Positions 21,827 through 40,294 of a stretch of 64,000 nucleotides of DNA are shown here, in pieces. The DNA is from an uncultured Bacilli bacterium (GTDB lineage: Bacteria; Bacillota_I; Bacilli_A; RF39; UBA660), in the NCBI GenBank assembly GCA_947626695.1, contig CANQTE010000001.1, forward strand, positions 14 to 64,013, written 5' to 3'. The notes under the pieces are model-generated. The model had not been told where the DNA came from, did not search any database, and saw only the letters and a program-made list of their open reading frames with translations. The position numbers and the translations under genes were made by a program. Position 1 is the first letter of the stretch. The number at the start of each line of letters is the position of its first letter.

Positions 21827-22102
21827 TTAAAAATCTTTTTGTCCAAGTCCAGTACCATCATAATTTTCAATATTCTCTAAATTAATCTCCATTATTTTGG
21901 CTTTTTCATCTAATTTCTCTTGTTCTATTTTCTCTGTTTTATATTCTTTATATATCTTTACTGGATTTAACTCTGGCATTTTAATTTCTTTGTTATTTTT
22001 TAAGTTATTTCCTAATATTAATCCAAGTGAAAAGCCTCCTATAATAAGGAAACTTATTAATGCTGATAATATAATCATACAACAACTATCTCCTCTCCCC
22101 AA
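21827..22102 (-). CDS. Small membrane protein
   Basis: N-terminal TM segment. It sits between terL and the portal. Confidence 0.3.
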   Translation of the reverse strand: MGRGDSCCMIILSALISFLIIGGFSLGLILGNNLKNNKEIKMPELNPVKIYKEYKTEKIEQEKLDEKAKIMEINLENIENYDGTGLGQKDF

Positions 22103-23451
22103 TCATAATTTCTTGGTCTTTCTATTTCAAAATTAAATACTTCATCTTTATTTATTATTTCTTTACTTGGTGCAGTTCTACTTACGCAAAAATATCTAAG
22201 TGCGTCAGTAATGTGTGTTAATTCATGTGGTTCTGTTGCAACATCATTAGGATTTTTTTCATCGTGTTGTAATTGTGGTAAACATCTAATTAAATTAATA
22301 CAATTACTAAATATTTTTAAATCAGTATCTTCTATTAATTCGCCTGTTTGTTCATGTCTTACTTTCCTTACCTTTAACCACTCTTTAACATTTAACCAAC
22401 CAGCAATTCGATTATTACTTGCTTTAGTTAAATATATTTTACCTTCTGCAAATAACTCCGCTGTACTCTTACCAGTATCTCTATTTTTACTCCAAAGGTC
22501 TGGCGGTGCAAATATATCTTTATACTCATTATTTCGCATTATGCTTTTTAAAGTTTGTCTTGCCTCACTTACAATTAATCCACTTTTATATATTTCATTA
22601 TAAACATAGGCTTTTCCTTTCGTATCTATTGCAATAAAAATAACTGCGAACATATCTAGTCCGTAGTCCATTGCTATATATCTATTCCAATGCTTAGGTA
22701 TCTCAAAAGGTTTTACAACATGTAAACTTCTTTTAAATTCTGGAAAGAACATACCGTCATATATATCCCAGTCACCATATTTTAGAGCTTTTCTTTCTTT
22801 TTCAGGTAGGTTATCTAATCTGTTAATATAATCTGGGTCATAATCTAGCATAAACTTATTATCAGTTACTAAACTAGGAATAAATATTCTTGTACTTGTC
22901 TCAGTTGAATTTTCACCTAATTTGCAGTTATGAATTACATTAGGTTCCCCTATATCTATAAATCTTGTCTTTACCCAACTGTGTCCGACACCTCCTGGAT
23001 TAGTGGAACTTTTCATCATCTTAGGATAATTATTTGCCCCTCTACATCTTGAAATCATATAAGTGTACATATATTCAGTAAAATGAGTTAATTCATCAAA
23101 TCTTATTACATCATACTCTGCTGATTGATACTGATATACATCTTTCTCACTATCAATATAGCCAAAATCTATAATACTTCCATTTTGGAAAGTCCATATA
23201 TGTTTACTAGAATTATAATTTGCTATTTCTTTAGGATATAATTCTAAACTTACTCTAATTAATGATTTTTCTAAATCTGGAAATGTACGTCTAAATATTA
23301 TTTGTTTAGATTTAGAATATTTAAGAGCATATAAAAAGGCATCTATTAATTGCCCATAACTTTTTCCTCCACCTGCTGCACCACCAAATAAAGTTTCAAA
23401 AGCAACACTATCTATAAATGATTTTTGCTTTTTAGTTATTGATAACTTCAT
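22075..23451 (-). CDS. terL: Terminase large subunit
   Basis: Walker A motif GGAAGGGKS near the N-terminus and a nuclease-like C-terminal half. It is followed by the portal. Confidence 0.75.
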   Translation of the reverse strand: MKLSITKKQKSFIDSVAFETLFGGAAGGGKSYGQLIDAFLYALKYSKSKQIIFRRTFPDLEKSLIRVSLELYPKEIANYNSSKHIWTFQNGSIIDFGYIDSEKDVYQYQSAEYDVIRFDELTHFTEYMYTYMISRCRGANNYPKMMKSSTNPGGVGHSWVKTRFIDIGEPNVIHNCKLGENSTETSTRIFIPSLVTDNKFMLDYDPDYINRLDNLPEKERKALKYGDWDIYDGMFFPEFKRSLHVVKPFEIPKHWNRYIAMDYGLDMFAVIFIAIDTKGKAYVYNEIYKSGLIVSEARQTLKSIMRNNEYKDIFAPPDLWSKNRDTGKSTAELFAEGKIYLTKASNNRIAGWLNVKEWLKVRKVRHEQTGELIEDTDLKIFSNCINLIRCLPQLQHDEKNPNDVATEPHELTHITDALRYFCVSRTAPSKEIINKDEVFNFEIERPRNYDWGEEIVVV

Positions 23452-23458
23452 TTAGCAC

Positions 23459-23815
23459 CTATTCAATTACATTAATATCAACTTTAAATGTTGTATTAGT
23501 AGTTGCTTCTCCTTTAGCTAATGCTCTTTTATCATATAATGTCCCTATAACTGTTGTTAAGTTATTTACTGGTATATCATCTTTGTCTAATGCTTTATCT
23601 AAATTATCCATAGCTTTATCTATTATTTTAGTTGCTTTTTCTATAAATTCACTCTTTTTTTGTTCGTATAGTTTTGGATTTTCCATAACTGCTTTTTTTA
23701 CAGTTTTATCATGTATTCCTACTTCTCTTGCAGTTTCACTGTAATTGCCAGTTTTAGCATAGCTAGTAATAGCTTTTACTTTAGTTTCATTATCTATCTT
23801 TTTTCCTTTAACCAT
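23459..23815 (-). CDS. terS: Terminase small subunit (HTH)
   Basis: 118 aa, directly upstream of terL, with an HTH-like segment (YSETAREVGIHDKTVKKA). Confidence 0.55.
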   Translation of the reverse strand: MVKGKKIDNETKVKAITSYAKTGNYSETAREVGIHDKTVKKAVMENPKLYEQKKSEFIEKATKIIDKAMDNLDKALDKDDIPVNNLTTVIGTLYDKRALAKGEATTNTTFKVDINVIE

Positions 23816-23967
23816 AAACTAGCTCCTCTCCATTTGTTTTTATTTTTTGAAAGCATAAAATAATGGAAAGAATTTATTAAATCTAAATATTAAAGTTTTA
23901 TACCATATAAGATAATATAGATTTATGACTATTTTATGCTCTCGAAAAGTAAAAAAAGGTAAAAGAA

Positions 23968-23990
23968 GAATTATGCTCTTTAATAATTAG
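23968..23990. repeat. Left arm of a 23-bp perfect inverted repeat flanking the GC-rich noncoding island
   Basis: gaattatgctctttaataattag is the reverse complement of 24567..24589. Confidence 0.8.
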
Positions 23991-24049
23991 ATATTTGATG
24001 TTCCTCACATTAATTTACTATATAAACATATTTTTTATTTCAGCCATAG

Positions 24050-24565
24050 ATTAACAAAAGCCCTCATTAAGATAGCTAGTCTTAAGTCTCTTTTGCCGTA
24101 CATCACAATCTAAGGAGGCTTGCACTCCTAAATTTCACACGTGTAGGGAATTGTTTCATTTACTGTATTAAAATCCGCTCTAATACTTAAATTCTTGAAA
24201 GAGGTGTAGATTTGTGCTACTTTAACCAGTTTCTAATCTTATAGCCTATCACTAGGTATCAACTACACTATAACTTATTAGCCTGTCTATCATTTAGTCT
24301 TTACTCGCTACAGTAATAACATCAGATTCTTAGTCCCGGTAAGGAGTGTCAGTCCCTACGTTTTCAGAGGTTATTACGATTAGTACTGTGCCTTATACAC
24401 CTACATAGTAAACTACTAATGTCTTTTTTCATACTTTGTATGTCACGATTTTGGTGTTGCCAACAAAATCAACTCAATCCCTTAAAAAGCCACCCTTTTA
24501 AGTAATAAGTATAAGACATTATCCTTGCAAGATTACCTCTCTTGTTTTTCACAAGGTTCAAATAT
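24050..24565. ncRNA. Candidate large structured noncoding RNA, or the cargo of a small TIR-bounded element, between the late-activator gene and terS
   Basis: About 0.5 kb with clearly higher GC than the flanking phage DNA. No ORF of 60 aa or more on either strand. There are many short complementary segments (e.g. cgtgtaggga with tccctacg), and the region is enclosed by the 23-bp inverted repeat. Confidence 0.4.
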
Positions 24566-24566
24566 T

Positions 24567-24589
24567 CTAATTATTAAAGAGCATAATTC
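24567..24589. repeat. Right arm of the 23-bp perfect inverted repeat
   Basis: ctaattattaaagagcataattc; the arms are 576 bp apart. Confidence 0.8.
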
Positions 24590-24659
24590 AAATGAAAAAA
24601 ACAATAAAACTTCCTATAAGATATTAAAAATATCTTATAATACCATAATACCACAAATT

Positions 24660-25103
24660 TTAATGACATTGGGTGACATCTTTTAATTCTTTATAAATTC
24701 TTTGTACTTGCCTTTTAGAATACCCAATTAAAACTGCGATTTCATCATATGAATAGTGCATTTTTTCTTTATAAAACTGTATCATTTCCTCTTTAGTTGA
24801 TTTCTTTTCTTTTTCCCAAATTAATTCTATTAATAAATCTTTATAGCTATAATAAGCTTTTTTAACCTCACTAAGTTCTGTTCTTAAATCATCTTGTTCC
24901 GCGATACTTAGTAATATTTTATCATTAGTTCTTCTTCCACCTTTTACCATAATATCTTTTGGTACTACACTCCTTAATCTTATTTTAGCAAAGTTAATAC
25001 GTAATCTATGAGCTATATCATAGTATCGTATTTTTAGCTTTCCCATTTCTTCTATTACTTCTTCAATAGTTAATTCTTTTCCACTCATATAAATTCCTTT
25101 CAT
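24660..25103 (-). CDS. ArpU/RinA-like phage late-gene transcriptional activator (sigma region-4-like HTH)
   Basis: 147 aa. The C-terminal YDEIAVLIGYSKRQVQRIYKEL matches a sigma-70 region-4-type HTH. It lies immediately upstream of the packaging module. Confidence 0.5.
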   Translation of the reverse strand: MKGIYMSGKELTIEEVIEEMGKLKIRYYDIAHRLRINFAKIRLRSVVPKDIMVKGGRRTNDKILLSIAEQDDLRTELSEVKKAYYSYKDLLIELIWEKEKKSTKEEMIQFYKEKMHYSYDEIAVLIGYSKRQVQRIYKELKDVTQCH

Positions 25104-37436: not shown

Positions 37437-38561
37437 ATGCCAGTATATCAAGAAAATGAAAATAAATGGACCAAAGATGGTCGTAAATGGTACTTTAAAG
37501 TTTACTATACAGATATGTATGGAAAACGTAAAAGAAAAAGAAGTAAATTATATTTAATGAAAAGAGATGCAATAGAAGCCGAATCTGAGTTTCTAACAAA
37601 AATAAAAACTGTTGATGAAACAGATAATAATATAAAGTTCGATACTGTATATAATGAGTGGCTAGAATTTAAAAAATCAAAAGTAAAGGTTTCTACCTAC
37701 TATAAAATTGTAAAAACATTAAACAAGCATATTTTAGATTTTTTTAAATCTTTTAAATTACATAATATAAAATTGAACTCTATTAATCAATGGAGAATTA
37801 AATTAGTAAATCAAGGACTTGATATAGATTATACAAATATAATTATTAATTATTTAAAAGAAATTTTGAATTTTGCTAAAACTAATTATAATTTTGATTA
37901 TAAAATTATTGATAAAATTTATACTATTAGAGATGACACACCAAAATCTGAAAAAACTGATGCAGAATTGAACTTTTGGACATATAGCGAGTTTAAAAAA
38001 TTTATAAATAAGGTTGATGATAAATTTTACTATTTAATATTTAATTTCTTGTATTTTACAGGTTTAAGAATTGGAGAATTTTCCGCATTAACTTGGAAAG
38101 ATATTGACCTAAGAAATAAAACTGTTAGTATTACAAAAAGTTTAACCTGTAAAGTCATTGATAAAAAATATATGATTACAAGCCCTAAAACTTCTAATTC
38201 TATAAGAGTAATAGATTTAGATGATAATTTAATAAAATTGCTTAAAGAGCATAAAAACAATGAAAAAAATATTCTTGGATTTAATGAGAATATGTTTGTA
38301 TTCGGAAATGTAAAATATATTTCACAAACAACATTAAGGAGGCATATTGCAAATTATGCGAAATTAGCTAAAGTTAAATATATTTCAATACATGGGTTTA
38401 GACACTCTCATGTGAGCTTACTAATATATTTAGGCTGTGATGTAAGAGACGTAGCAAATAGAATTGGAGATACAGTACAAATAGTTGAAAGTACATATTA
38501 TCATATGTTTCCTAAAAAGAAAGAAAATGCAATAAAATTACTAAATAATTTAGAAAAATAG
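37437..38561 (+). CDS. int: Tyrosine site-specific integrase
   Basis: C-terminal catalytic signature (R...HGFRHSHVSLL...Y). It is adjacent to the tRNA attachment site. Confidence 0.85.
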   Translation: MPVYQENENKWTKDGRKWYFKVYYTDMYGKRKRKRSKLYLMKRDAIEAESEFLTKIKTVDETDNNIKFDTVYNEWLEFKKSKVKVSTYYKIVKTLNKHILDFFKSFKLHNIKLNSINQWRIKLVNQGLDIDYTNIIINYLKEILNFAKTNYNFDYKIIDKIYTIRDDTPKSEKTDAELNFWTYSEFKKFINKVDDKFYYLIFNFLYFTGLRIGEFSALTWKDIDLRNKTVSITKSLTCKVIDKKYMITSPKTSNSIRVIDLDDNLIKLLKEHKNNEKNILGFNENMFVFGNVKYISQTTLRRHIANYAKLAKVKYISIHGFRHSHVSLLIYLGCDVRDVANRIGDTVQIVESTYYHMFPKKKENAIKLLNNLEK

Positions 38562-38578
38562 GACGTAAATAGGACGTA
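38560..38578. promoter_or_regulatory. Tandem AGGACGTA arm-type sites at the integrase-proximal prophage end
   Basis: AGGACGTA occurs at 38560-38567 and 38571-38578, overlapping the integrase stop codon, 15 bp from the att core. Confidence 0.45.
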
Positions 38579-38593
38579 ATTAATAAATGATAC

Positions 38594-38646
38594 GAAAAAA
38601 CTCCCTAAAATAGGGAGATTAAATCCACATGGCGGAGTAGAGAGGA
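38594..38646. repeat. attR core, overlapping the tRNA-Ser 3' end
   Basis: Perfect 53-bp copy of 12..64. It overlaps the 3' end of the minus-strand tRNA at 38630..38646. Confidence 0.85.
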
Positions 38647-38722
38647 TTTGAACCTCCGCGCCAGCATTCGCCGACCTAGATCCTTAGCAGGGACCCCTCT
38701 TCAGCCTCTTGAGTACTACTCC
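38630..38722 (-). tRNA. tRNA-Ser (anticodon GCU), long variable arm
   Basis: The reverse complement reads GGAGTAG...CUGCUAA...GGCGCGGAGGTTCAAATCCTCTCTACTCCGCCA. It has an acceptor stem, a T-arm GGTTCAAAT, the anticodon loop and an ~93-nt length. Confidence 0.8.
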
Positions 38723-38866: not shown

Positions 38867-40294
38867 ATGAATAATATTATTAAAAGACTTCAAGAAGAAT
38901 TTAAAAATGTTCCAGATTTAACTATTAAAAAAATTAAATTATCTTTTTTTGATACAGTTTATGTTGCTTATTTAGAAACTATATGTTCTAGTGATAGAGT
39001 TAATGATTATATATTAAAAAATTTAAGTGATTTAAGTGGTAAGAAAAAAAATAAAATTTTAAATACCAATAGTATTCTTCCTGGTCCTAATACTAAAATA
39101 ATAGATAATTATGATAAATTAGAGTTTTATATAAATAATGGATTTGCTATTATTATTAGGAAAAATAGAGCACTTGCAATTGAAGTTAAAGGAGATATAA
39201 ATAGAAGTATTCCAACTCCTGATTCTGAGCCCGCAATAAATGGTCCTAAAGATGCTTTTAATGAAAATTATCAAGTAAATATGGGACTTATTAAAAGAAG
39301 AATTAAAAGTAATACTCTTAAAACAGAAGAGTTTTTTCTAGGAAGAAAAACTAATACTAAAGTAGGTTTATTATATATAGATGATATCGCAGATACAAAA
39401 TTAATTAATAATATTAAGAATAAAATAACAAAAATAGATATAGATGGTATTCTTGATTCTTCCTCTTTAGGACAACTTATAAATAAAGAAAATAAAGTTC
39501 ATTTTCCCACATATATTTTAACAGAAAGACCTGATAATGTTGCAAGAGCTCTTTTAGAAGGTAAAATAGCAATACTTGTTGATACTTCTCCTTTTGTAAT
39601 TATTATACCTGCTTTTTTTGGTGATTTTATTAATCCTGGAGTAGATGCTTACAATAAAAGTAATAATATTAATTTTTTAAAAATAGTAAGACTTGCTTGT
39701 TTTTTCTTATCTATGAGTGTCCCAGCAATATATATAGCACTAGTTAATTATAATCAAGAAACTATACCTACACCCCTTCTTGCTAGTTTTGCTATTCAAA
39801 GAGATGGTGTTCCCTTCCCAGCCATAGTAGAAGCCGTGATGATGCTTTTTATATGTGAAATGTTAAGAGAAAGTGATATAAGGTTCCCTAATTCTTATGG
39901 GAGTGCTATTTCAATACTTGGTGCTTTAGTTTTAGGAGATGCCGCAGTTTCAGCAGGAATTGTCTCCCCTATAATGATAATTGTTATAGCTCTAACATTC
40001 ATGGCTAGTCTAATATTTACCGAAGCAGAAGTTACTAGTGCTCTTAGATTTATGCGTTTTATATTTATTATTTTAGCATCCTTTTATGGAATACTTGGAT
40101 TAGTATTTGGTTTATTTTTCTTTCTTATTAAAATTAATGATATTAAATCATTTGGTATGCCATACTTTTACCCTATTATGCCTTTTGATAAAAATTATTT
40201 CTTTAAAACTATTCTTAAAAAGCCCACAAAAAAAGATAAAAAAAGAAGTTCTATTTTAGCTAAAAAGAATTTGATTAAACAAGGAGAAAATTAA
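38867..40294 (+). CDS. Spore germination receptor, GerA-family A subunit
   Basis: Conserved GerAA core (ILTERPDNVARALLEGKIAILVDTSPFVIIIPAFF...) and C-terminal TM helices. Confidence 0.8.
   Translation: MNNIIKRLQEEFKNVPDLTIKKIKLSFFDTVYVAYLETICSSDRVNDYILKNLSDLSGKKKNKILNTNSILPGPNTKIIDNYDKLEFYINNGFAIIIRKNRALAIEVKGDINRSIPTPDSEPAINGPKDAFNENYQVNMGLIKRRIKSNTLKTEEFFLGRKTNTKVGLLYIDDIADTKLINNIKNKITKIDIDGILDSSSLGQLINKENKVHFPTYILTERPDNVARALLEGKIAILVDTSPFVIIIPAFFGDFINPGVDAYNKSNNINFLKIVRLACFFLSMSVPAIYIALVNYNQETIPTPLLASFAIQRDGVPFPAIVEAVMMLFICEMLRESDIRFPNSYGSAISILGALVLGDAAVSAGIVSPIMIIVIALTFMASLIFTEAEVTSALRFMRFIFIILASFYGILGLVFGLFFFLIKINDIKSFGMPYFYPIMPFDKNYFFKTILKKPTKKDKKRSSILAKKNLIKQGEN

What the first reader, a model, noticed from the sequence alone, without database searches (positions are those of the whole stretch)
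23968..24589. GC-enriched 0.6-kb noncoding island enclosed by a 23-bp perfect inverted repeat between the phage late-activator gene and terS
The phage is very AT-rich, but this block is markedly GC-richer. It has no ORF of 60 aa or more on either strand and many mutually complementary short segments. It sits in the ~850-bp gap between the ArpU-like activator and terS, where only a late promoter and pac/cos site are expected. It is bracketed by a perfect 23-bp inverted repeat (23968-23990 / 24567-24589), consistent with a closing long-range stem or terminal inverted repeats. Large ornate RNAs of unknown function (ROOL- or GOLLD-type) are typically prophage-borne in Firmicutes. A MITE-like insertion is the alternative explanation.
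Basis: partly seen in the sequence, partly recalled or inferred. Interest (0 to 1): 0.75.

Follow-up and report, generated by a model that had tools for sequence, protein, structure and literature searches.

The report
ROOL RNA gene in prophage
The 0.6-kb noncoding island is a complete gene for ROOL RNA, a known large phage-borne RNA that self-assembles into eight-copy cages and whose function is still unknown; here it lies just upstream of the DNA-packaging genes of a prophage.

Summary
Window 23968-24589 (minus strand, the gene strand) encodes a full-length ROOL RNA. The Rfam model RF03087 matches end to end at 146.8 bits against a gathering score of 99.1 (E 2e-32). The perfect inverted repeat is 24 bp and is the closing helix P1. 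Fifteen homologues from viral metagenomes (57-79% identity among the first five) keep the fold. Of 160 pairs, 97 show compensatory changes; no shuffle reached this and slid controls gave at most 37. The kept features include a pseudoknot and the loop-to-junction contact that the cryo-EM work names bridge B4. The mobile-element, coding and packaging-site readings are rejected. New details: Rfam's standard fast filters miss this AT-rich copy. The RNA lies about 40 nt downstream of a predicted activator-dependent late promoter. Related phages carry ROOL, tRNAs, a hammerhead ribozyme, an unclassified conserved hairpin or nothing detected in the same slot. The normally invariant L18 loop is replaced by a 6-nt palindrome. 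"ArpU-like" and "Clostridium" are unverified. Verdict: a new member of a known family, of modest interest.

The parts
23968..24589 (-). ROOL RNA gene (622 nt including the full closing helix). The Rfam RF03087 match covers 23980-24580.
   Evidence: cmscan gives 146.8 bits against gathering score 99.1, E 2.1e-32, model 1-574 of 574. Structure covaries in 5- and 16-sequence alignments.
24566..24589 (-). P1 closing helix, 5' arm (GAAUUAUGCUCUUUAAUAAUUAGA)
   Evidence: 24-bp perfect complement of 23968-23991. Homologues have 21-32-bp closing stems that include G.U pairs. 19 of 28 P1 pairs show compensatory change in 16 sequences.
23968..23991 (-). P1 closing helix, 3' arm. It is followed directly by a U-rich tract (UUCUUUUACCUUUUUUU).
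24339..24359 (-). GC-rich 7-bp hairpin (GUAGGGA-CUGACAC-UCCUUAC). It lies in a 33-nt insertion at the position of the variable P7 stem and accounts for much of the local GC peak.
   Evidence: Local-end insertion *[33]* in the cmscan alignment; sequence read directly. The P7 assignment is my inference from the order of helices.
24307..24310 (-). Loop L8 tetranucleotide UAGC, one side of the quaternary kissing contact B4
   Evidence: Pairs with GCUA at 24279-24282. Window UAGC:GCUA, L018 UGGC:GCCA, most others UGGU:ACCA. 95% of cells paired. The B4 assignment follows PMC12286853 (J6/8:L8).
24279..24282 (-). Junction tetranucleotide GCUA (consensus gCCA), partner of L8
24263..24267 (-). Pseudoknot 5' strand UGUAG (probably P10)
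   Evidence: Pairs with CUACA at 24205-24209. The middle pair is U-A in 8 and C-G in 7 of 16 sequences, and 97.5% of cells are paired.
24205..24209 (-). Pseudoknot 3' strand CUACA, at the 5' flank of the linker
24143..24202 (-). Variable linker (60 nt). It cannot be aligned between homologues and corresponds to the disordered linker inside the cage.
   Evidence: Low posterior probabilities in the cmscan alignment; no conserved columns in A1 or A2; coordinates; PMC12286853.
24073..24079 (-). L18 loop CUAGCUA (6-nt palindrome UAGCUA). It replaces the UCGC loop core that is invariant in the other 15 homologues.
   Evidence: Alignment A2, columns about 625-635; coordinates. L18:L18 is bridge B6 in PMC12286853 supplementary table 3.
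24663..24679 (-). Two direct repeats ATGTCAC / ATGTCAT, 10 nt apart, overlapping the end of the 147-aa gene: the predicted activator-binding site of the late promoter
   Evidence: Read. In 12 related loci (8 distinct repeat words), tandem repeats with 10-nt spacing lie 8-30 nt upstream of a GGTAWTATGG-like box. Function is inferred.
24637..24650 (-). Two overlapping -10-like boxes (GGTATTATGGTATTAT) with no -35 element. The predicted late transcription start is about 24625-24630.
   Evidence: Inferred, not shown.
24615..24639 (-). 11-bp perfect A/U hairpin between the predicted promoter and ROOL
   Evidence: (I14). Weak: z -1.95.
23816..23967 (-). 152-nt spacer between ROOL and terS. It folds into a long hairpin in which the U-tract after P1 pairs with the terS Shine-Dalgarno sequence.
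   Evidence: -28.9 kcal/mol, z -3.4. Conservation not tested.
24660..25103 (-). 147-aa upstream gene: helical protein with a C-terminal helix-turn-helix, a possible sigma-region-4-like late regulator
   Evidence: Sub-threshold HTH_23 and HTH_28 hits only. No ArpU or RinA hit. AF2 model pLDDT 81. Weak Foldseek similarity to phage DUF1492 and sigma-70-r4 proteins, E about 0.01.
23459..23815 (-). 118-aa gene directly upstream of terL, the presumed small terminase subunit
   Evidence: Position; 35-68% identical homologues in the same position in 14 related loci. No family HMM hit except a weak HTH.
22075..23451 (-). Large terminase subunit
   Evidence: Pfam Terminase_6N 8.4e-9; PHROG 979 2.2e-49.

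Best explanation
The island is a gene for a ROOL RNA (Rfam RF03087), about 620 nt, transcribed from the minus strand in the same direction as the flanking phage genes.

Shown:
- The sequence matches the ROOL covariance model end to end.
- The 24-bp inverted repeat is the closing helix P1.
- The multi-junction fold, one pseudoknot and the L8-to-junction complementarity are kept through compensatory changes in 15 homologues.
- Many invariant G.U pairs fix the strand.

Inferred from solved ROOL structures (PMC12286853; Ling et al., summarised in PMC12515178): the RNA folds into a flat monomer, and eight copies assemble without protein into a hollow cage about 28 nm across. The L8:junction kissing contact joins neighbours within a half-shell. 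L18:L18 contacts join the two half-shells. The 60-nt variable linker lies inside.

Inferred from comparative anatomy: the RNA begins about 40 nt downstream of an activator-dependent late promoter, which consists of two direct repeats 10 nt apart plus an extended -10 box and follows the 147-aa regulator gene directly. ROOL would therefore be the first product of late transcription, made together with or just ahead of the terminase mRNA. A U-tract after P1 (separate terminator-like hairpins in four relatives) may let ROOL accumulate in excess over the mRNA.

The cellular function of the cage is not known for any ROOL. In related phages the same slot holds tRNA genes, with or without ROOL. My working guess is that ROOL is a late-expressed accessory RNA acting on host or phage RNA or translation components, not a cis-regulator of terS.
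For: Identity:
- Full-length ROOL hit, 146.8 bits against gathering score 99.1, E 2.1e-32, minus strand.
- Homologues L010, L018 and L014 score 184.8, 163.4 and 139.3 bits.

Structure:
- RNAalifold on 5 sequences of 57-79% identity gives 155 pairs, 64 of them compensatory.
- Counting on those 5: 95.7% of cells paired, 0 of 500 shuffles reach the observed value, slid controls give 8-14 compensatory pairs.
- On 16 sequences: 160 pairs including pseudoknots, 87.9% paired, 97 compensatory, 0 of 500 shuffles, slid controls at most 37.
- P1 is 21-32 bp in all five first homologues, with G.U pairs.
- Pseudoknot UGYAG:CURCA is U-A in 8 and C-G in 7 sequences. L8:junction is UAGC:GCUA in the window, against UGGC:GCCA and UGGU:ACCA elsewhere.

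Strand: G.U pairs invariant in all 16 sequences, for example A2 columns 66:89 and 434:550.

Noncoding.

Expression context:
- All 16 ROOLs are co-oriented with their flanking ORFs.
- The repeat-plus-box promoter motif lies downstream of the regulator gene in 12 relatives.
- Terminator-like hairpins follow ROOL in L018, L014, L002 and L010 (read by eye, not scanned), and a U-tract follows P1 in the window.

Slot equivalence: relatives carry tRNAs (L001, L016, L018, L035, L037, L039, L041), a hammerhead (L032) or only a short 230-360-nt gap in the same slot.

Published background: ROOL occurs in phages and prophages, often near tRNAs, and forms an octameric cage.
Against: - No transcript data exist for this locus. 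The promoter, start site and 3' end are predictions. The consensus promoter scan found fewer sites than shuffles gave, and no terminator.
- The 147-aa protein is not demonstrably a late activator.
- The L18 loop, invariant in the other 15 homologues and described as highly conserved in the literature, differs here. Cage closure could therefore be altered or lost.
- The P7-P8 region aligns poorly (helices 13, 14 and 16 are only 37-53% paired), so that part of the fold rests on the covariance-model alignment alone.
- No tRNA lies next to ROOL in this window. The only tRNA is the attachment-site tRNA-Ser 14 kb away.
- No function can be derived from sequence.
Confidence: 0.9

Rival explanations
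1. A MITE-like or other mobile DNA element. The 24-bp repeat would be a pair of terminal inverted repeats recognised by a transposase, and the interior would be cargo or junk.
For: The repeat is perfect in this copy. The element is present or absent in a syntenic slot among related phages. The same ROOL subgroup sits in different genomic neighbourhoods in other phages.
Against: The element is single-copy in 64 kb, with no blastn match in 50,697 phage records. No target-site duplication is visible at the junctions (..TTTCATTT|GAATT and AATTC|TTCTTTT). The closing stems of homologues differ in sequence but stay paired (19 of 28 pairs compensatory), and their G.U pairs work only in RNA and on one strand. 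The interior is a covarying fold with 160 pairs that matches a curated RNA family.
Confidence: 0.02
2. The structure is mainly a cis-acting leader of the late operon. It would work as an attenuator or terminator, or as a translational control element for terS, and its resemblance to ROOL would be secondary.
For: It lies between the predicted late promoter and terS. P1 is followed directly by a U-tract. The downstream spacer can pair that U-tract with the terS Shine-Dalgarno sequence.
Against: The same RNA subgroup occurs next to tail-fibre, head, HNH and exonuclease genes and next to tRNAs, not only before terS. Many relatives with the same terS and terL have no ROOL. Members of the family fold and assemble on their own in vitro (PMC12286853). 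The U-tract and Shine-Dalgarno pairing were seen in this copy only.
Confidence: 0.07
3. A pac or cos packaging signal: repeats and bent DNA upstream of terS that the terminase recognises.
For: The location upstream of terS is where cos sites lie in some phages.
Against: Nothing in the island is needed beyond the RNA explanation. Related phages with 55-68% identical terS lack it. Covariation preserves RNA pairing rather than DNA sequence.
Confidence: 0.01
4. A short conserved protein-coding gene is hidden in the island.
For: Three small ORFs of 30, 31 and 53 aa touch the island.
Against: They lie at the edges and overlap P1. The homologues have no ORF in a conserved position or frame. Indels in A1 and A2 are not multiples of three. 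Gene callers leave the gap empty.
Confidence: 0.01

Closest known systems
ROOL RNA (Rfam RF03087; Weinberg et al. 2017, PMC5737381; cryo-EM by Kretsch et al. 2025, PMC12286853, and by Ling et al. 2025, summarised in PMC12515178)
   Same: Length (622 nt against a mean of 581). Full-length covariance-model match. A long closing helix. Multi-junction architecture with a pseudoknot. L8:junction complementarity. An unalignable internal linker. Prophage location in an AT-rich Bacillota host. Homologues adjacent to tRNA genes.
   Different: Rfam's standard filters miss it. The L18 loop reads CUAGCUA instead of the conserved UCGC core. A 33-nt insertion with a GC-rich hairpin sits at the variable P7 position. 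No tRNA is adjacent in this copy. It occupies a defined slot directly behind a predicted late promoter and ahead of terS; I found no paper in the searchable library that holds both 'ROOL RNA' and 'terminase'.
GOLLD RNA (large ornate phage and prophage RNA, 14-copy cage)
   Same: The same kind of genomic setting (phages, near tRNAs), the same kind of RNA-only cage, and an unknown function. GOLLD expression rises during phage lysis (PMC12286853).
   Different: Sequence and fold are unrelated. cmscan of the slice at E up to 10 gave no GOLLD match.
Phage lambda pR'-6S RNA-tR' arrangement (from my own knowledge, not tested here)
   Same: A late promoter followed by a short noncoding transcript and a terminator-like signal ahead of the late genes.
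   Different: The lambda leader is an unstructured by-product whose terminator is overridden by the Q protein. Here the leader is a 0.6-kb autonomous structured RNA, and no antiterminator is identified. This is an analogy of layout only.

Membership tests
ROOL RNA (RF03087) | Full-length match to the family covariance model at or above the curated gathering score (99.1 bits) | tested here: met
   146.8 bits, E 2.1e-32, model positions 1-574 of 574, not truncated. It is found only with permissive filters. Gathering mode with Rfam's fast filters returns nothing for the window or for a 1.1-kb slice.
ROOL RNA (RF03087) | Size of about 0.58 kb, with a long closing helix (P1) enclosing the whole RNA | tested here: met
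   622 nt. 24-bp perfect P1. 21-32-bp P1 in the homologues. 19 of 28 P1 pairs compensatory in 16 sequences.
ROOL RNA (RF03087) | Ornate multi-junction secondary structure supported by covariation | tested here: met
   19-23 helices. 95.7% (5 sequences) and 87.9% (16 sequences) of cells paired. 64 and 97 compensatory pairs. 0 of 500 shuffles reach these values, and slid controls are far lower. The P7/P8 region aligns poorly.
ROOL RNA (RF03087) | Pseudoknot(s) (P10 in the cryo-EM numbering) | tested here: met
   UGUAG (24263-24267) pairs with CUACA (24205-24209). The middle pair alternates U-A (8) and C-G (7) across 16 sequences. Naming it P10 is my inference. P13 was not identified.
ROOL RNA (RF03087) | Conserved L8:J6/8 complementarity (quaternary kissing loop B4) | tested here: met
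   The window has a double change, UAGC:GCUA, against UGGC:GCCA and UGGU:ACCA elsewhere. 95% of cells paired. An alternative partner at the 3' UGGC was rejected on the 16-sequence alignment (helix 10).
ROOL RNA (RF03087) | Internal linker with no sequence or structure conservation | tested here: met
   The 60-nt stretch 24143-24202 cannot be aligned in A1 or A2 and has low posterior probability in the cmscan alignment.
ROOL RNA (RF03087) | Highly conserved L18 loop (symmetric L18:L18 bridge B6) | tested here: inconclusive
   15 of 16 sequences have the UCGC core. The window has the 7-nt loop CUAGCUA. The loop sequence is not conserved, but it is a perfect 6-nt palindrome, so a symmetric loop-loop contact remains possible. 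The mapping of L18 rests on supplementary table 3 of PMC12286853 and on the order of helices.
ROOL RNA (RF03087) | Protein-free assembly into a homo-octameric cage | not testable with these tools
   This needs in-vitro transcription followed by mass photometry or cryo-EM.
ROOL RNA (RF03087) | Typical setting: phage or prophage, often next to tRNA genes | tested here: met
   Prophage of about 1-38.6 kb with an integrase next to tRNA-Ser. No tRNA is adjacent here, but tRNAs flank ROOL in L018, L056, L050, L062, L055, L064 and L059.
GOLLD RNA | Match to the GOLLD covariance model | tested here: not met
   No GOLLD match at E up to 10 on the 1.1-kb slice with permissive filters.
MITE / non-autonomous transposon | Several copies with conserved terminal repeats and target-site duplications | tested here: not met
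   One copy in the window. No duplication at the junctions. The termini covary instead of being conserved.
ArpU / RinA late transcriptional activators (for the upstream 147-aa gene) | Match to the family HMMs (NCBIfam phage_arpU or phage_rinA, or Pfam or PHROG equivalents) | tested here: not met
   No hit for the window protein or for 10 positional counterparts. Only weak fold similarity to phage DUF1492 and sigma-70-region-4 proteins, E at least 0.01. The position upstream of terS and the promoter motif are compatible with a late regulator of another family.

The most novel reading that the evidence does not exclude
In this phage lineage ROOL may be the promoter-proximal product of the activator-dependent late promoter. 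It would be interchangeable with tRNA cassettes in a dedicated RNA-cargo slot ahead of terS, which would fix its time of expression (late, with packaging) and give a tractable genetic system for the unknown function of ROOL cages.

In addition, this copy replaces the otherwise invariant L18 loop with a 6-nt palindrome (UAGCUA). That is natural variation of the kind the cryo-EM authors reported they could not analyse for the inter-shell bridge B6, because the loop was too conserved in their alignment. It would predict a cage closed by a stronger, HIV-DIS-like kissing loop.
Probability: 0.35. Interest if true: 0.5.

Novelty: new member of a known kind. Interest (0 to 1): 0.3.

Why it matters
ROOL is one of the few natural RNAs known to build a protein-free cage, and its biological role is still open. 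This copy adds no new class, but it is useful in three ways.

1. It shows that standard Rfam annotation misses bona fide ROOLs in very AT-rich phage DNA. The window copy scores 146.8 bits but gets no hit in gathering mode. L014 scores 139.3 bits in a 0.75-kb slice but was missed, together with L002, in a 22-kb permissive search. Published counts (1,596 non-redundant ROOLs) may therefore be underestimates for gut Bacillota phages.

2. It places ROOL in a defined transcriptional position behind a late promoter. Relatives carry tRNAs or nothing in the same slot, a natural presence/absence series suited to testing function.

3. Its L8:junction double change and its palindromic L18 loop are informative variants for the quaternary contacts seen by cryo-EM.

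Tried and rejected
- Rfam in gathering mode on the whole window and on a 1.1-kb slice found nothing. This is a filter artefact, not absence.
- blastn ('distant' mode) of the island against 50,697 phage records gave no match.
- A search for terS relatives in IMG/VR by peptide patterns found none. terL worked instead.
- None of the 16 terL relatives in GTDB genomes carries ROOL by nhmmer. These loci were not all rescanned with the covariance model, so divergent copies could have been missed.
- A candidate pseudoknot between the junction RCCA and the 3' UGGY was rejected. In 16 sequences the 3' segment covaries with the 5' strand of P4 instead, and L054, L050 and L062 break the alternative.
- RNAalifold helices 14 and 18 were replaced by the Rfam-type pairs.
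- Host identification failed. An exact look-up of LeuS found nothing. Exact copies of the phage proteins occur only in unnamed ENA assemblies. Relatives come from MAGs labelled Bacilli, Clostridia or Eubacteriales. The host here has a GerA-type germination protein, so it is a spore-forming Bacillota of unknown genus.
- ArpU/RinA HMM searches found nothing. Foldseek of an AF2 model against the PDB found nothing significant.
- The similarity between the P1 arms and the downstream hairpin arms (I4 and I8) was judged not distinguishable from chance in AT-rich DNA.
- The 17-nt direct repeat flanking ROOL (D1, 82% identity) was likewise not pursued.

Full report
**What is there.** All genes around the finding read on the minus strand. 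In transcription order they are a 147-aa gene (25103..24660), an 844-nt gap, a 118-aa gene (23815..23459) and the large terminase (23451..22075; Pfam Terminase_6N, PHROG terL).
- The gap holds a perfect inverted repeat of 24 bp, one base longer than reported: 23968-23991 / 24566-24589. It occurs nowhere else in the window and in no shuffle.
- No ORF of 60 aa or more overlaps the island. Independent gene calls on the same phage in two ENA assemblies leave the gap empty.
- The island is 32.5% GC, against 26.7% for the window and 17-21% for its noncoding flanks. However, 7.5% of equal-sized windows are as GC-rich, so 'markedly' overstates it.

**Identification.** Rfam in its standard gathering mode found nothing in the window, nor in a 1.1-kb slice.
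- With permissive filters the same slice gives a full-length match to ROOL (RF03087) on the minus strand at 24580..23980: 146.8 bits against a gathering score of 99.1, E 2.1e-32, model 1-574 of 574, composition bias 46.6 bits. No GOLLD match appears.
- The miss is therefore a filter effect in AT-rich sequence. The same happened to homologues L014 and L002 in a 22-kb permissive search. L014 scores 139.3 bits when given alone.
- The inverted repeat is helix P1 and extends about 9 bp beyond the ends of the Rfam model.

**Homologues and structure.** terL relatives in IMG/VR (L001-L032) gave four further distinct ROOLs, in L018, L014, L002 (identical in L025) and L010 (identical in L009). All are on the gene strand, in the gap between a gene of about 145 aa and terS. 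They are 57-79% identical to one another and to the window copy.
- All have closing stems of 21-32 bp that include G.U pairs.
- RNAalifold on the five sequences predicts 155 pairs in 19 helices, 64 with compensatory changes.
- Counting gives 95.7% of cells paired. No shuffle out of 500 reaches the observed values, and slid controls give 38-45% paired and 8-14 compensatory pairs.
- A DNA pattern from the conserved core found 11 more distinct ROOLs in viral contigs.
- On the 16-sequence alignment, a structure of 160 pairs including two non-nested helices is 87.9% paired with 97 compensatory pairs. Again 0 of 500 shuffles reach this, and slid controls give at most 37.
- The weak helices (37-53% paired) lie in the P7/P8 region, where MAFFT aligns poorly.
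- Invariant G.U pairs fix the strand as the gene strand.

**Features tied to the solved structures.**
- Cryo-EM shows ROOL as a D4 octameric cage of about 28 nm. It has stems P1-P19 and pseudoknots P10 and P13. A disordered internal linker lies inside. Bridges B1-B4 hold each half-shell together, and B5-B6 join the two halves.
- Pseudoknot: UGUAG (24263-24267) pairs with CUACA (24205-24209) at the 5' flank of the linker. The middle pair is U-A in 8 and C-G in 7 of the 16 sequences.
- Bridge B4: the L8 loop and the junction 3' of P8 are complementary in every sequence. The window has the double change UAGC:GCUA, against UGGC:GCCA in L018 and UGGU:ACCA in most others. This fits the published J6/8:L8 contact.
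- Linker: 24143-24202 (60 nt) cannot be aligned between homologues.
- P7 position: the window has a 33-nt insertion with a GC-rich 7-bp hairpin (24339-24359).
- L18 differs. Its core is UCGC in the other 15 sequences, but the window has a 7-nt loop CUAGCUA whose last six bases form a perfect palindrome. L18:L18 is the symmetric bridge B6. A palindromic replacement is what a self-pairing loop would tolerate, but this is inference only.

**Context and likely expression.** The window holds a prophage of roughly 1-38.6 kb. Its integrase (37437-38561) lies next to tRNA-Ser (38630-38722). Beyond it lie host genes for a GerA-type germination protein, LeuS and FeoB.
- Predicted promoter: directly after the 147-aa gene lie two direct repeats 10 nt apart (ATGTCAC and ATGTCAT, 24679-24663) and a GGTATTATGGTATTAT box (24650-24637) with no -35 element. 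The same layout recurs in 12 related loci with 8 distinct repeat words: exact tandem repeats with 10-nt spacing, 8-30 nt upstream of a GGTAWTATGG-like box. This looks like an activator-dependent late promoter.
- ROOL would then start about 40 nt into the late transcript.
- 3' side: in L018, L014, L002 and L010, terminator-like hairpins followed by U-runs come after ROOL (read by eye). In the window, P1 is followed directly by UUCUUUUACCUUUUUUU. The 152-nt spacer can fold so that this tract pairs with the terS Shine-Dalgarno sequence.
- None of this is shown experimentally. The consensus scan gave nothing above background.
- The regulator is not ArpU or RinA by any HMM, and it has only three homologues among 5.8 billion proteins. 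Its AF2 model (pLDDT 81) resembles phage DUF1492 and sigma-70-region-4 proteins only weakly.

**The slot is variable.** Of the 48 terL-related loci, six (four distinct sequences) carry ROOL. Others carry tRNAs in the same slot (L001, L016, L035, L037, L039, L041), and L018 has ROOL followed by three tRNAs. L032 has a type II hammerhead. Many have only a 230-360-nt gap.
- In the wider subgroup ROOL is always co-oriented with its neighbours.
- It lies upstream of a terminase in L050 and L056.
- Elsewhere it lies next to tail-fibre, minor-head/HNH or exonuclease genes, often with tRNAs.
- This matches the published association with phages and tRNA islands.

**Rivals.** The MITE reading fails. The element is single-copy, has no target duplication, and has covarying termini with G.U pairs rather than conserved ones. 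Coding fails. A pac/cos role is unnecessary and does not fit the absence of the element from phages with related terS. A purely cis-regulatory role is unlikely given the other contexts, but a side effect on terS expression is not excluded.

**Verdict.** Its interest lies in the details: the annotation blind spot, the late-promoter slot shared with tRNAs, and the informative L8 and L18 variants. It is not a new kind of element.

Noticed in passing
L001 1405-1512; L010 1608-1677; L065 7086-7143; L012 2358-2495; L016 700-773; L018 2059-2191; L035 1242-1374; L037/L041 2439-2529; L038 1737-1850; L059/L068 (not in the window): A long hairpin whose arms are conserved in sequence (ATAGRTAG-TGTACTGATGATAT ... 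ATATCATTAGTACAG-TATCTAT) around a variable insert of 30-110 nt. It recurs in the regulator-terS slot of many related phages, immediately 5' of ROOL, 5' of a tRNA, or just before a ribosome-binding site. The loci scanned with Rfam in permissive mode (L001, L010, L016, L018, L035) gave no hit for it. It could be an RNase III-type processing site, a protein-binding RNA or a packaging element.
   Followed up: partly
L032 1869-1933 (minus strand of the locus): A type II hammerhead ribozyme (59.1 bits, gathering score 37) lies in the gap upstream of the terminase genes of a terL-related phage, on the strand opposite to terL.
   Followed up: no
window 23700-24800; L014 1540-2290; L002: Rfam's fast filters drop ROOLs that score well above the gathering threshold in AT-rich DNA. 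The window copy scores 146.8 bits and L014 scores 139.3 bits. L014 and L002 were missed in a 22-kb permissive search, and L014 was found only when a slice under 1.1 kb was given.
   Followed up: yes
window 24663-24679 and 24637-24650; L001, L009, L010, L013, L014, L016, L033, L034, L035, L039, L042: A shared promoter-like layout directly after the small regulator gene. It has two or three direct repeats at 10-nt spacing, whose sequence differs between phages (ATGTCMC, TGCCCAC, TTGATACC, AATATTTCG, TGACAC), followed by a GGTAWTATGG box. This suggests that each regulator has its own repeat specificity.
   Followed up: partly
window 23816-23967 (minus strand): The spacer between ROOL and terS folds into a long hairpin (-28.9 kcal/mol, z -3.4). 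In it the U-tract right after ROOL pairs with the terS Shine-Dalgarno sequence GGAGAGGAG, which hints at coupling between the ROOL 3' end and terS translation.
   Followed up: no
window 37437-38722: A tyrosine integrase (37437-38561, plus strand) lies next to tRNA-Ser(GCU) (38630-38722, minus strand) and marks one prophage end. The host genes beyond it include a GerA-family spore germination protein (38867-40294), so the host is a spore-forming Bacillota. The closest terL relatives come from gut MAGs labelled Bacilli or Clostridia, and the genus Clostridium is not established.
   Followed up: partly
window 24660-25103 (minus strand): The 147-aa putative regulator has only three homologues in a database of 5.8 billion proteins and matches no family model. 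Its AF2 model (pLDDT 81) is a long helical hairpin plus a C-terminal helix-turn-helix, and it resembles phage DUF1492 and sigma-70-region-4 proteins only weakly.
   Followed up: partly
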